From a virus, in IMG/VR virus record IMGVR_UViG_3300027861_000022, positions 1,581 to 65,580 of that record: a DNA stretch of 64,000 nt; one strand, 5' to 3'. Below, in pieces: positions 2,796-8,371 of this stretch; position 1 is the stretch's first letter; each line of letters starts with the position of its first letter. Both the position numbers and the translations under genes were made by a program. The notes beneath the pieces are model-generated. The model was not told where the DNA came from. It was given only the letters and a program-made list of their open reading frames with translations, and did no database searches.

Positions 2796-2840
2796 AAAAA
2801 AGGGTGGTCGGAGGGAGGCTAACCAAAACCCCCCTCCAAC
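2796..2840 (-). terminator. Intrinsic terminator after the AAA ATPase gene
   Basis: GGTTGGAGGG...CCCTCCGACC hairpin followed by a T run on the minus strand. Confidence 0.65.
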
Positions 2841-2861
2841 CGGAGCTATCACACTCGCAAA

Positions 2862-4132: not shown

Positions 4133-4930
4133 TTATATAGCCCCTTGCCAGTGCTTTCGTCGTTTATAAATCTCTTTAATTTTCTTGTCCTTGGAGCTAA
4201 ACCAACCTGCAGGCGGCGCAGATGGCGGAACTGGGGACTCAACAGTTAGAAAATGGTGTCCAATATGCTGGGCGCGCCAGTGCGAGCCATCTATTAGCTC
4301 TCCCAAAATGCGCTCGCTCAAAAACAGCTTCAAAAGCTCTTCATCGAATGGTAGCCCTAATGCATTCTTCCACCCGCGAGCACCCAGTAGGCCCATAGGA
4401 ACGGTGAAAAAAGGAGCGGGCTGGGCGCCGGTGTGTCCTTCGGTGGCGCTGTTAAAATACCAAACTTCTCGGTTCCATACATTGATTCCAAGCCAGTTTA
4501 CATCTGTTACAATCTGCGGAATTCGGTATGTGCCAGCCTGCTGATTATTCGCATCAATGTATTTTCTATTAGCATCACTCGAAACTATGGCGCCGATGCC
4601 GACTCCCAGGCGAATTAAGTGCCGATAAACACTTTTCCTGAATTCAGAGTTTTTACCTCTGGTTTCTTCCATGTTTTCTTTCAGGGTTGTGCAAGTTGCG
4701 CGGTTGTGTCCGCCTTCGTCGCAGTATGAACACTTGCGATTCTTGCCGCTAGCCTTCCGTCTTGCTTTCTTGAGGTCATGGGCGCGCACAGTGTAAAAAT
4801 CATCTCCATGTACGGCGCGTAGTTCCTCAATTCTTTCTCTCTTACTAGGACAAGAGGATTTATTGTGTCCTTTATCGTGACAGTATGAACAGTGAACGGT
4901 TCTTTTATGGGAGGGGTGCGAGTATGACAT
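4133..4930 (-). CDS. Protein with two CCHC zinc knuckles
   Basis: CSYCHDKGHNKSSC and CSYCDEGGHNRATC. Confidence 0.75.
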   Translation of the reverse strand: MSYSHPSHKRTVHCSYCHDKGHNKSSCPSKRERIEELRAVHGDDFYTVRAHDLKKARRKASGKNRKCSYCDEGGHNRATCTTLKENMEETRGKNSEFRKSVYRHLIRLGVGIGAIVSSDANRKYIDANNQQAGTYRIPQIVTDVNWLGINVWNREVWYFNSATEGHTGAQPAPFFTVPMGLLGARGWKNALGLPFDEELLKLFLSERILGELIDGSHWRAQHIGHHFLTVESPVPPSAPPAGWFSSKDKKIKEIYKRRKHWQGAI

Positions 4931-4977
4931 TGTGATAGCCTCAAAAGTTTGTGGGTGAATCTCTAACTTGTATATGT

Positions 4978-5033
4978 ATTATACCAAATTTTAGAGAGAA
5001 AGTAAAGGATTAAATTGTAAAGAGAATGTCAAG
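4978..5033 (-). promoter_or_regulatory. Early promoter cassette 4
   Basis: TATAAT 4978-4983, TTTACT 5001-5006, variant motif 5015-5033. Confidence 0.8.
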
Positions 5034-5049
5034 AGATTTATAAATAAGA

Positions 5050-5264
5050 TGACCGAGGAGGTCGCTGCCGTTTTGCTCGGATGTCCGGCGTCCTATCTAC
5101 ATAAATTGTTTGTTGGCACTACTTCGCGTGCCCCCCTGGTAATGGAGATAGAAAGCCCATAATGCATCGCGCTAAAGCGATGAGCAGCCTTCAACCCTTA
5201 GAATCAAGAGGCAGCCCTATATAGCAACGGGCTACGTTTAAAGATTATGTGACCTCCTCGGTCA
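5050..5264. ncRNA. Candidate structured ncRNA of unknown class
   Basis: Perfect 14-bp inverted repeat TGACCGAGGAGGTC (5050-5063 / 5251-5264) enclosing several hairpins; intergenic. Confidence 0.45.
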
Positions 5265-5287
5265 AATTCAAGTTTAAATCAAGGCTT

Positions 5288-5893
5288 TCATTTGACTTTC
5301 GGAGCTTTCTTGAGCCAGCGCTCTTGAATTTCAATTGTTCGAGATTCTCCAAATGGCAAAATTGTGTAGCCCTTGGCGCCTTTGGCAGCGGAGCGAATAG
5401 GTCCATCGGTTGAAACCACCATAGCAATTCGGTCGCGAAACGCATAAGCGTGTGACCGAGCGGTCTTGCGCACTTTTACCAGAGAGCCAGCGGGATAAAG
5501 CGCGTCCGCAGCCATGATTGTAAGCACCTTTTGGACGTACTTATTTTCAACCATCTTGCGATAAAGCTTTTCGCTTGGAATATAAGTTTCTTCCTCCATA
5601 ATTGTCTTGGCGGCATCGCCAAAATAGGGAGGATTCAAAAGATAATATTCTGCGGCGACTTTTAGCTTGCGCGCCTTTTCCTCGTTCCAGTCGTCCTTCC
5701 AGGCTTTTTGTGAAGCGATGACCGCCGGACTAAAACGAGCCTCCATCCTCTCAAACGCCGACCACTGTTTGTCGCTAAGGCGTCCCCATTTCTTGCAGCT
5801 TCCCTGCAAGCTTTCGGCGAACGAGCGAGAAGAGCCGTTCAAATCTTTGTTTTCAAGTAGTTTTTCAATTCGGGCGGTTTGTTGAGCAGACAT
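5288..5893 (-). CDS. Hypothetical phage protein with C-terminal KOW/SH3-like region
   Basis: 201-aa ORF with own promoter and GGAG RBS; F..SL.....G.LS.KQ motif and YPAGSLVKV. Confidence 0.75.
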   Translation of the reverse strand: MSAQQTARIEKLLENKDLNGSSRSFAESLQGSCKKWGRLSDKQWSAFERMEARFSPAVIASQKAWKDDWNEEKARKLKVAAEYYLLNPPYFGDAAKTIMEEETYIPSEKLYRKMVENKYVQKVLTIMAADALYPAGSLVKVRKTARSHAYAFRDRIAMVVSTDGPIRSAAKGAKGYTILPFGESRTIEIQERWLKKAPKVK

Positions 5894-5918: not shown

Positions 5919-5974
5919 ATTATACAGGGTTTTTAGGCTTAAGTCAATGGTTATATTGTCAAGAGAATGTCAAG
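5919..5974 (-). promoter_or_regulatory. Early promoter cassette 5
   Basis: TATAAT 5919-5924, TTGACT 5942-5947, motif 5956-5974. Confidence 0.85.
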
Positions 5975-6606: not shown

Positions 6607-6627
6607 ACAAGTTAAATAGTCGCAGGT

Positions 6628-6870
6628 TTACTTTTCCCTCGGATGGACCTGATACCAGCCTGGTCCACACGATTGCGTGCGAACAAGCAGGATAGTTTCC
6701 TTTCCATACGATTTTAGAGTTTTTCGATGGAATTCATCGTATCCGTCGCGACTTCGCAAAAGGTCAGCGGCGCAAACCGAAAACCAAGTTCCGACCGGAC
6801 CAAAATACAGGTCTTGGCCATTGTGGAATTCAAAAGCCTGATTTTCGTTAATGTGAATCGCCTCATTCAT
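6628..6870 (-). CDS. Hypothetical protein
   Basis: 80-aa ORF coupled in the operon. Confidence 0.6.
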   Translation of the reverse strand: MNEAIHINENQAFEFHNGQDLYFGPVGTWFSVCAADLLRSRDGYDEFHRKTLKSYGKETILLVRTQSCGPGWYQVHPREK

Positions 6871-8165: not shown

Positions 8166-8241
8166 TGGTACGCTAGGGTGGATTTGAACCACCGACCAAT
8201 CGCATATAAGACGACTGCTCTCACCCCTGAGCTACTAGCGT
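8166..8241 (-). tRNA. tRNA-Ile(UAU)
   Basis: Full cloverleaf ACGCTAG/CTAGCGT, anticodon loop CT-TAT-AT, T loop TTCAAAT, encoded CCA. Confidence 0.9.
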
Positions 8242-8244
8242 GTA

Positions 8245-8296
8245 TGGTACTCGGAGAGGGATTTGAACCCTCAATCCCATCGGGCGACAGATTTTA
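8245..8296 (-). pseudogene. 3' half of tRNA-Leu(UAA); 5' half absent
   Basis: TAAAA-TCTGT, long variable arm, GAGGG-TTCAAAT-CCCTC, TCCGAGT-A-CCA; no matching 5' strand or D arm upstream. Confidence 0.7.
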
Positions 8297-8371
8297 CTTT
8301 GTAACAAACTATCCTCACTTGGTTCTTTCTGGATGGTTACCTTTTGTATCTTTATTCATTCTTCGCTCTCC

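What the first reader, a model, noticed from the sequence alone, without database searches (positions are those of the whole stretch)
5050..5264. About 215-nt intergenic structured RNA candidate closed by a perfect 14-bp stem
Seen: TGACCGAGGAGGTC ... GACCTCCTCGGTCA encloses (minus strand) TAGCCC/GGGCTG, CATCGC/GCGATG, GGCAC/GTGCC, TTCTATCT/AGATAGGA and CATAAT/ATTATG pairings, giving a multi-branch fold. Each terminal repeat is also a mini-hairpin with complementary loops (GAGGA/TCCTC). GGCTGC and GGGCT recur, allowing alternative pairings. There is no U-tract, so it is not a simple terminator. I could not assign it to a known class; motifs loosely echo RNase P RNA order (GAGGA.., CAGGG, AGTGCC.AC, GAGCAA) but no P4 pseudoknot is visible. 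Inference: an uncharacterised phage ncRNA, ribozyme or 3'-UTR switch.
Basis: partly seen in the sequence, partly recalled or inferred. Interest (0 to 1): 0.62.

Follow-up and report, generated by a model that had tools for sequence, protein, structure and literature searches.

The report
Uncatalogued folded RNA behind phage early gene
A 215-base stretch between two early genes of an uncultured marine phage encodes a real, selection-maintained, knotted RNA fold of a family absent from the RNA catalogue (Rfam); it sits where a transcript normally ends, and what it does is still unknown.

Summary
Window 5050-5264 carries a perfect 14-bp closing stem, and on the gene-sense (minus) strand it folds far better than shuffles (z = -6.2).

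It is a conserved RNA. I found 21 distinct homologues, all from marine viral or metagenome contigs. None came from 185,579 prokaryote genomes or from 50,697 deposited phage records. No Rfam family matches.

Comparative analysis supports five helices around a junction (P1-P5) plus a loop-to-linker pseudoknot. Of the cells, 93% are paired and 23 pairs changed on both sides. G-U pairs outnumber A-C 75:17, which fixes the strand.

There is one copy per complete genome. It always lies in the gene-sense orientation after an early gene, usually just before an early promoter and a gene for a two-zinc-knuckle protein. One relative lacks exactly this module, and another clade carries it about 1.1 kb away.

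My best reading is the 3' trailer of an early transcript. The closing helix with its U-rich tail would end, attenuate or process the transcript, and a nuclease-protected compact RNA with invariant loops would remain. Its partner is unknown.

The RNase P echo is not supported. Ribozyme and switch readings are untested. This scan found the same family before, on another genome (e1-5817094).

The parts
5251..5264 (-). P1, 5' strand of the closing helix
   Evidence: Perfect 14-bp inverted repeat. Five P1 pairs changed on both sides among 20 sequences. One clade replaced P1 by a different, longer outer stem.
5236..5250 (-). J1/2, A-rich linker, variable in sequence
   Evidence: Alignments A3 and A6.
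5211..5235 (-). P2 hairpin: 7-bp stem and 11-nt loop L2 (5218-5228), invariant but for one R
   Evidence: 100% paired; the two outer pairs changed on both sides.
5203..5210 (-). P3, 5' strand of a long-range helix pairing with 5133-5140
   Evidence: Four of 8 pairs changed on both sides, 96.9% paired.
5141..5202 (-). Interior of the P3 arm: invariant 5x5 internal loop (5198-5202 / 5141-5145), conserved helix 5186-5197 / 5146-5157, variable tip hairpin 5158-5185
   Evidence: Inner helix 94.5% paired with one pair changed on both sides and four one-sided consistent changes. Three of 4 tip-hairpin pairs changed on both sides. Coordinates.
5133..5140 (-). P3, 3' strand
5115..5132 (-). P4 hairpin, variable sequence with a kept stem
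   Evidence: Four of 5 pairs changed on both sides.
5090..5114 (-). J4/5 linker. 5097-5103 is the 3' strand of a 7-bp pseudoknot with L2 bases 5218-5224, followed by an invariant AUAG
   Evidence: 99.3% paired. One pair runs A-U / G-U / G-C across clades.
5067..5089 (-). P5 hairpin: 4-bp stem and a 15-nt loop with a conserved AUYCGAG.AA core
   Evidence: Two of 4 pairs changed on both sides, 96.3% paired.
5050..5063 (-). P1, 3' strand
5035..5049 (-). U-rich tail directly after P1
   Evidence: Sequence. The tail is U-rich in all homologues except the clade with the replaced outer stem. It is part of the block missing from the relative that lacks the element.
4978..5034 (-). Early promoter cassette of the next gene: repeated upstream box, -35 at 5001-5006, TG-extended -10 at 4978-4983
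   Evidence: Promoter scan, 10 of 12 with TG. The same about 70-nt cassette recurs several times in each related locus.
5288..5893 (-). Upstream early gene (201 aa, no family match), whose transcript the element would trail; its promoter is at 5919-5947
4133..4930 (-). Downstream gene: 265-aa protein with two CCHC-type zinc knuckles and a small beta-rich C-terminal domain
   Evidence: Pfam PF16588 E 4.6e-7. CX2CX4HX4C occurs twice and is invariant in 21 homologues. AF2 pLDDT 85 with no significant fold match.

Best explanation
The element is a discrete, accessory RNA module of an uncatalogued family. It is transcribed as the 3' trailer of an early phage mRNA.

The RNA folds into five helices around one junction:
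- P1 closes the 5' and 3' ends.
- P2, P3 and P4 abut without linkers.
- P5 lies next to P1.
- A 7-bp pseudoknot ties the invariant P2 loop to the P4/P5 linker.

Proposed action (inferred): when the 3' strand of P1 emerges, the long GC-rich closing helix next to a U-rich tail stops or attenuates RNA polymerase, or offers a double-stranded processing site. This happens just ahead of the next early promoter. The core has both ends locked in P1 and so survives as a compact, exonuclease-protected RNA. Its invariant loops would be a binding surface for a partner that is not yet identified. The zinc-knuckle protein encoded next door is the obvious candidate.

Shown: the fold, the strand, selection on the sequence, single copy per genome, and cassette behaviour.
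Inferred: termination or processing, stability, and the partner.
For: Real and conserved:
- 37 matching loci give 21 distinct sequences, from 5 IMG/VR records and 24 metagenome contigs.
- 84 invariant columns.
- Nucleotide identity to this copy is 69-86%. That equals the best-conserved neighbouring gene (76-84%) and exceeds the two flanking genes (62-77%).

Fold:
- 59 pairs, 93.1% of cells paired against 85.6% in shuffles and about 40% when partners are slid.
- 23 pairs changed on both sides; 0 of 500 shuffles reach this (also on an alignment not fitted to a model).

Strand: 75 G-U cells against 17 A-C cells. The minus strand folds better.

Closure is selected:
- One clade lost most of P1 and closes the RNA with an unrelated 19-21-bp outer stem.
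- Another clade extends P1 to about 24 bp.

Position:
- It lies 23 nt after a stop codon.
- Only a weak 9-of-12 promoter-like match lies at its 5' edge, overlapping the 5' strand of P1 (5244-5271).
- A U-rich tail follows, then an early promoter.
- The next gene has a plain 15-bp terminator in the equivalent slot.

Module behaviour:
- One full copy in each complete genome.
- A relative lacks exactly the element plus its tail, with the flanks contiguous.
- Another clade carries it about 1.1 kb upstream of the usual neighbour gene.

A shorter RNA of similar layout sits after the ATPase gene of a sister clade and ends in a closing stem plus U7.
Against: - There are no expression data.
- The tail is interrupted (UCUUAUUUAU here), and a helix closing 187 nt is not a standard terminator; the terminator scan does not call it.
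- In the clade with the replaced outer stem, the element is followed at once by a ribosome-binding site and an ORF, with no promoter and a poor U-tract. There it looks internal to an operon.
- A plain hairpin would suffice to terminate, so termination alone does not explain 84 invariant columns.
- The link to the zinc-knuckle gene is imperfect. One record keeps the gene without the RNA, and all carriers belong to one phage clade, so co-occurrence may simply be ancestry.
- All 20 sequences are fairly close, so several 'changes on both sides' are single events.
Confidence: 0.5

Rival explanations
1. A cis-acting switch. The folded core senses a ligand or a phage or host protein and sets whether P1 forms. 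This would tune read-through from the upstream early unit into the zinc-knuckle gene.
For: - The fold is complex and pseudoknotted, with invariant unpaired bases.
- P1 directly precedes the U-rich tail.
- Two mutually exclusive pairings exist for the invariant stretch at 5146-5157: a local partner at 5186-5197 or a distal partner at 5090-5098. RNAfold picks one or the other in different homologues.
- The zinc-knuckle gene lies 108-400 nt downstream in most contexts.
Against: - A strong promoter lies between the element and the downstream gene.
- In one clade the two are 1.6-2.1 kb apart.
- No gene of known metabolism is nearby to suggest a ligand.
- The distal alternative pairing has no change on both sides and is broken in 4 of 20 sequences at one pair.
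Confidence: 0.15
2. A trans-acting RNA partner of the neighbouring zinc-knuckle protein (a small RNP), used in host takeover or counter-defence. Its position at a transcript end would be incidental.
For: - Every locus with enough flank that carries the RNA also carries a full-length orthologue of the 265-aa protein. In 14 of 17 distinct contexts that gene starts 108-400 nt downstream.
- The sister clades that lack the RNA at this site also lack the full-length orthologue there.
- CCHC knuckles are typical single-strand nucleic-acid binders (established knowledge; Pfam hit; invariant Cys/His).
Against: - One record has the protein (63% identical) but no RNA in 114 kb, although the record is 63% complete.
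- Carriers form one clade, so linkage may be ancestry.
- The protein diverges much faster than the RNA (40-45% amino-acid identity against 69-86% nucleotide identity).
- The protein has no known fold partner.
Confidence: 0.15
3. A self-cleaving or otherwise catalytic RNA that cuts early transcripts at the module.
For: Its size, multi-helix junction, pseudoknot and near-invariant unpaired nucleotides are in the range of small ribozymes.
Against: No match to any ribozyme model in Rfam, even at E 10. No conserved candidate cleavage site could be named. Nothing here tests catalysis.
Confidence: 0.07
4. A DNA-level element: a miniature inverted-repeat transposon, or a pair of palindromic protein-binding sites. 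The RNA fold would then be a by-product.
For: - Terminal inverted repeats of 14-24 bp.
- Clean presence/absence and a second location.
- Each arm is itself nearly palindromic in this copy.
Against: - One copy per complete genome.
- Always in the sense orientation.
- No target-site duplication at the filled and empty sites.
- Internal helices covary, not only the ends.
- G-U pairs exceed A-C 75:17, which DNA symmetry would not give.
- No copy in 185,579 prokaryote genomes.
Confidence: 0.04

Closest known systems
PeSL (promoter-early stem-loop) cassettes of T4-type phages (Arbiol et al. 2010, PMC2839356)
   Same: - Repeated sigma-70-type early promoters with an AT-rich upstream part and a stem-loop that terminates upstream transcription.
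- Dense in regions of small unknown genes.
- Recombination between cassettes inserts, deletes and moves modules.
Here the element lies in front of one of at least nine such repeated promoters, and it is present, absent or moved between relatives.
   Different: - The PeSL stem-loop is a short G/C hairpin. Here the 'loop' is a 187-nt conserved, pseudoknotted, five-helix RNA with invariant bases.
- Only one of the cassettes in the genome carries it.
- The phage encodes DnaE, a minimal PolA and a tubulin-like protein according to an earlier, unchecked note. It has not been shown to be T4-type.
Intrinsic (factor-independent) terminators
   Same: A GC-rich helix immediately followed by a U-rich tract at the end of a transcription unit. 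The candidate sister form ends in an 8-bp stem plus U7.
   Different: - The helix closes 187 nt instead of a 3-8-nt loop.
- The tail is interrupted.
- One clade has no U-tract.
- The standard scan does not call it.
Processing stalks: RNase III sites between T7 early genes, and the stems flanking 16S/23S rRNA (own knowledge, not tested here)
   Same: Long duplexes formed by sequences flanking a structured RNA, or lying between cistrons of an early transcript. Closing stems here reach 19-24 bp in two clades.
   Different: No cleavage data exist. The stem is only 14-16 bp in most members. T7 sites are simple irregular hairpins without a conserved core.
Orphan ornate RNAs associated with phages (GOLLD, ROOL; Rfam; PMC12286853 abstract seen)
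   Same: Complex conserved folds of unknown function, often phage-borne. Their conserved loops were later found to mediate assembly.
   Different: Those RNAs are about 3-4 times larger and are in Rfam. No model matches here.

Membership tests
Any Rfam 15 family (4227 models) | Covariance-model score at or near the family threshold | tested here: not met
   0 matches at E <= 10 on 4800-5500. Only a tRNA was found in the whole window at gathering thresholds. Eleven homologue or sister loci gave only two chance-level hits away from the element.
RNase P RNA | Match to the bacterial, archaeal or minimal RNase P models; P4 pseudoknot built from the conserved CR-I and CR-V blocks | tested here: not met
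   No RNase P model scores at E <= 10. The one supported pseudoknot joins a hairpin loop to a linker, with unrelated sequence.
Intrinsic terminator | GC-rich stem with a short loop | tested here: not met
   The stem is 14 bp and GC-rich, but the enclosed 'loop' is 187 nt. The scan calls only the 5-bp mini-hairpin of the 5' arm.
Intrinsic terminator | Run of U directly after the stem | tested here: inconclusive
   7 U in the first 10 nt here, UUUU first in one clade, and none in the clade with the outer stem.
PeSL cassette | Repeated sigma-70-like early promoter with an AT-rich upstream region, many copies among small unknown genes | tested here: met
   Promoters at 4978, 5919, 6551, 7823 and others with fixed 17-nt spacing. 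The cassette recurs 4-7 times per related locus.
PeSL cassette | Short simple stem-loop as the terminator part | tested here: not met
   A 215-nt multi-helix RNA occupies the slot. The neighbouring cassette at 2806-2841 does have a simple hairpin.
PeSL cassette | Cassette-bounded insertion, deletion and shuffling between relatives | tested here: met
   Exact absence of the element plus tail in a relative, directly in front of the conserved promoter box. A second location occurs in one clade.
Miniature inverted-repeat transposable element | Terminal inverted repeats | tested here: met
   14-24 bp.
Miniature inverted-repeat transposable element | Many copies, both orientations, target-site duplication | tested here: not met
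   One full copy per complete genome, all in the sense orientation, and no duplication at the filled versus empty site.
Retron msr-msd RNA | Flanking inverted repeats plus an adjacent reverse transcriptase gene | tested here: not met
   The ends pair, but the adjacent proteins show no RT domain in Pfam or PHROGs, and the downstream protein has no RT-like fold match.
Riboswitch | Aptamer in the 5' leader of the regulated gene, with no promoter in between | tested here: not met
   A 10-of-12 TG-extended promoter lies between the element and the next gene.
Riboswitch | Ligand-dependent structural change | not testable with these tools
   Needs in-line probing or binding assays.
Y RNA / YrlA | Ro-binding bulged stem formed by the two ends, plus a tRNA-like module | tested here: not met
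   No hit to the Rfam Y RNA or YrlA models. P1 is an unbulged perfect helix here. ARAGORN found no tRNA-like module in the element.

The most novel reading that the evidence does not exclude
The family is a new class of functional RNA with an activity of its own. It could be a small ribozyme or ligand- or protein-sensing fold that processes or gates early phage transcripts. It could instead be the RNA subunit of a phage RNP with the neighbouring CCHC zinc-knuckle protein, acting on the host. In either case it would be more than an elaborate terminator.
Probability: 0.2. Interest if true: 0.8.

Novelty: new variant of a known kind. Interest (0 to 1): 0.55.

Why it matters
Complex, pseudoknotted RNAs with many invariant unpaired bases are the class from which ribozymes, riboswitches and RNP scaffolds have repeatedly emerged.

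This one is a clean candidate:
- It is about 215 nt, small enough for direct biochemistry.
- Its helices are supported by comparative evidence.
- It is restricted to a clade of about 170-190-kb marine phages with no cultured member.

It also shows that the terminator slot of early-promoter cassettes can house a full structured RNA that is gained, lost and moved as a unit. That would be a route by which phages trade non-coding functions.

If it is only a terminator or stabiliser, it is a modest addition to phage gene-expression lore.

Tried and rejected
- Rfam at permissive thresholds, on the element, the whole window and homologue loci: nothing.
- blastn of the intergenic region against 50,697 phage records: no match.
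- Pattern scan of 185,579 prokaryote genomes: no match.
- A loose two-block pattern in IMG/VR returned 56 loci. Beyond the five known records, all were unrelated coding sequence.
- Idea that the P5 loop, which shares CCGAG or UUCGAG with the 5' strand of P1, competes for the 3' strand of P1: duplex energies are no better than shuffled loops. Rejected; the shared word stays unexplained.
- AUCCGAG as a genome-wide signal: 12 hits against 8.6 expected. Not enriched.
- Homology of the shorter sister-clade RNA ('type B') to this family. The model built from this family hits three such loci in the same slot at only E 0.006, 0.1 and 5.9. A sequence-only profile of this family gives E about 1-20. My joint regex was designed after seeing both forms. 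I keep this as a lead, not a finding.
- Type B is itself confined to about 9 of 80 related phages at that site.
- The neighbouring protein gave no significant fold match (Foldseek E >= 0.086; best VIA Z 4.8, to small SH3/Tudor/KOW-like barrels) and has only 'hypothetical' relatives.
- The candidate promoter TTGAAT-16-CATAAT inside the 5' arm of P1 scores 9 of 12 here and is weaker in homologues. I rejected it as the RNA's own promoter because it would exclude a covarying strand.

Full report
WHAT IS THERE

Window 5050-5264 lies between two minus-strand genes. The upstream gene (5893-5288) encodes a 201-aa protein with no family match. The downstream gene (4930-4133) encodes a 265-aa protein.

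The two 14-nt arms are perfectly complementary, 187 nt apart. Read in the direction of the genes, the RNA folds at -88.3 kcal/mol against -61.2 +/- 4.4 for shuffles (z -6.2). The other strand gives z -3.8.

No Rfam model matches, even at E 10. The window is most of a 66-kb IMG/VR virus record estimated 36% complete, and the element occurs once in it.

HOMOLOGUES

Neighbour-protein searches and three DNA patterns found the element in five IMG/VR records (87-193 kb) and 24 marine metagenome contigs. Together these give 21 distinct sequences.

Nothing was found in deposited phage genomes or in one genome each of 185,579 prokaryote species.

Each of the three complete or near-complete relatives has exactly one full copy.

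Identity to this copy is 69-86%. That is as high as the best-conserved neighbouring gene (an AAA ATPase, 76-84% nt) and higher than the two flanking genes (62-77%). The differences are concentrated in three hairpins, and 84 columns are invariant.

FOLD

I counted pairs on a MAFFT alignment (A3) and on a model-guided alignment (A6). The supported model is:
- P1, the closing helix.
- P2, a 7-bp hairpin with an 11-nt loop that is invariant but for one purine.
- P3, an 8-bp long-range helix (5203-5210 with 5133-5140), with four pairs changed on both sides.
- Inside P3, an arm with an invariant 5x5 internal loop, a conserved helix and a variable tip hairpin.
- P4, a variable hairpin with 4 of 5 pairs changed on both sides.
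- P5, a 4-bp hairpin with a conserved 15-nt loop.
- A 7-bp pseudoknot between the P2 loop (5218-5224) and the P4/P5 linker (5097-5103). One of its pairs runs A-U, G-U, G-C across clades.

Overall there are 59 pairs and 93.1% of cells are paired, against 85.6% in shuffles and 38-44% when partners are slid. Twenty-three pairs changed on both sides, and 0 of 500 shuffles reach the observed values.

Two caveats apply. A6 was fitted to P1-P5, though not to the inner P3 helix or the pseudoknot. The sequences fall in a few clades, so some changes are single events.

P2, P3 and P4 abut without linker bases. This suggests stacked helices around a five-way junction (inference).

It would cross P3, has no change on both sides, and is broken in 4 of 20 sequences at one pair. 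The local partner fits the substitutions better. A conformational alternative cannot be excluded, because RNAfold chooses either one in different homologues.

STRAND AND LEVEL OF SELECTION

In the modelled pairs, G-U cells number 75 and A-C cells 17. The constraint is therefore on an RNA of the gene-sense strand, not on double-stranded DNA.

Closure of the two ends is itself selected:
- One clade has lost most of P1 and closes the RNA with an unrelated 19-21-bp stem made from outer flanks.
- Another clade extends P1 to about 24 bp.

CONTEXT

The element starts 23 nt after the upstream stop codon. Only a weak 9-of-12 promoter-like match lies at its 5' edge (5244-5271), and using it would cut off a covarying strand. 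The element is followed by a U-rich tail (5035-5049) and then by the cassette of the next gene (-35 at 5001-5006, -10 at 4978-4983). The next gene along, the ATPase, ends in a plain 15-bp terminator in the equivalent slot.

The element therefore occupies a terminator position. It resembles the promoter-early stem-loop (PeSL) cassettes of T4-type phages, whose stem-loops terminate and whose repeats drive modular shuffling (PMC2839356). That lead came from e1-5817094.

Consistent with this, a relative (63% identical zinc-knuckle protein, same gene order) lacks exactly the element plus its tail. Its flanks are contiguous in front of the same promoter box. In one clade the element lies about 1.1 kb upstream of the 201-aa gene instead of after it. 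One homologue is a mosaic of two clades.

Against a simple terminator reading, the clade with the outer stem has a ribosome-binding site and an ORF directly after the element, with no promoter and no good U-tract.

NEIGHBOURING PROTEIN

The 265-aa product has two invariant CX2CX4HX4C zinc knuckles and a C-terminal beta-rich domain. It has no significant structural match; the best Z is 4.8, to small SH3-like barrels. All its relatives are 'hypothetical' viral proteins.

Every RNA-bearing locus with enough flank also has a full-length orthologue. In 14 of 17 distinct contexts that gene starts 108-400 nt downstream. Sister phages with neither feature at this site join the 201-aa gene directly to the ATPase gene.

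The link is suggestive only. One record has the protein without the RNA, and all carriers are one clade.

A POSSIBLE SHORTER RELATIVE

In a sister clade, the slot after the ATPase gene holds a 130-165-nt RNA with these features:
- an 8-bp closing stem followed by U7;
- a hairpin whose loop can pair with the bases just 5' of an AUAG (CCUGU/ACAGG in most, CUUGU/ACAAG in one);
- a P5-like hairpin with compensatory changes.
These are seen.

The model of this family hits three such loci in that slot, but only at E 0.006, 0.1 and 5.9. Sequence-only profiles are not significant. I treat this as a lead.

VERDICT

The thing is a genuine, uncatalogued, structured RNA module.

My best mechanism (confidence about 0.5) is a 3' trailer whose closing helix and tail end, attenuate or process the early transcript. 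This would leave a protected compact RNA whose invariant loops bind an unknown partner.

The switch, RNP and ribozyme readings remain open, and a DNA transposon reading is unlikely. Nothing supports RNase P.

The same family was reported earlier in this scan on another genome (e1-5817094), with a similar reading. My structure, strand test, empty-site comparison and copy counts were made independently here.

Noticed in passing
window 8245-8300 (minus strand): Just upstream of the tRNA-Ile gene (8166-8241) lies a T-arm-like hairpin followed by an acceptor-like 3' strand and ACCA. ARAGORN and Rfam call no tRNA there. It may be a tRNA fragment or a tRNA-like piece.
   Followed up: no
window 6623-6651 (minus strand): A 5-bp hairpin has a 19-nt loop containing the same AUCCGAG..AAAA core as the P5 loop of the element. 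It overlaps the stop codon of ORF 6628-6870 and sits directly before an early promoter box. The 7-mer is not enriched in the window (12 hits against 8.6 expected), so this may be chance.
   Followed up: partly
L160:300-375 (record G010, about 42.1 kb; also G007, about 189.8 kb): A solitary hairpin with a P5-like stem and loop is preceded by a small G/C hairpin and followed by a U-tract. It lies far from the main element in two related genomes (model hit E about 1e-3).
   Followed up: partly
L010-L017 and L161-L168, 80-250 nt after the ATPase gene: A 130-165-nt RNA is closed by an 8-bp stem plus U7, with a loop-to-linker pairing and a P5-like hairpin. It is found in about 9 of 80 related phages at that site and may be a shorter relative of the element.
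   Followed up: partly
window 2806-2841 (minus strand): A canonical 15-bp terminator hairpin with a U6 tail follows the ATPase gene and abuts the next early promoter cassette. This shows what the ordinary occupant of this slot looks like.
   Followed up: yes
62 IMG/VR loci, L098-L158: Proteins that share only the N-terminal double CCHC zinc-knuckle module are widespread in large marine phages, with varied C-terminal parts. No function is known for any of them.
   Followed up: partly
L077 (metagenome contig): The element here is a mosaic. Its ends and 3' domain are of one clade and its P3-arm tip is of another, which indicates recombination within the RNA gene.
   Followed up: no
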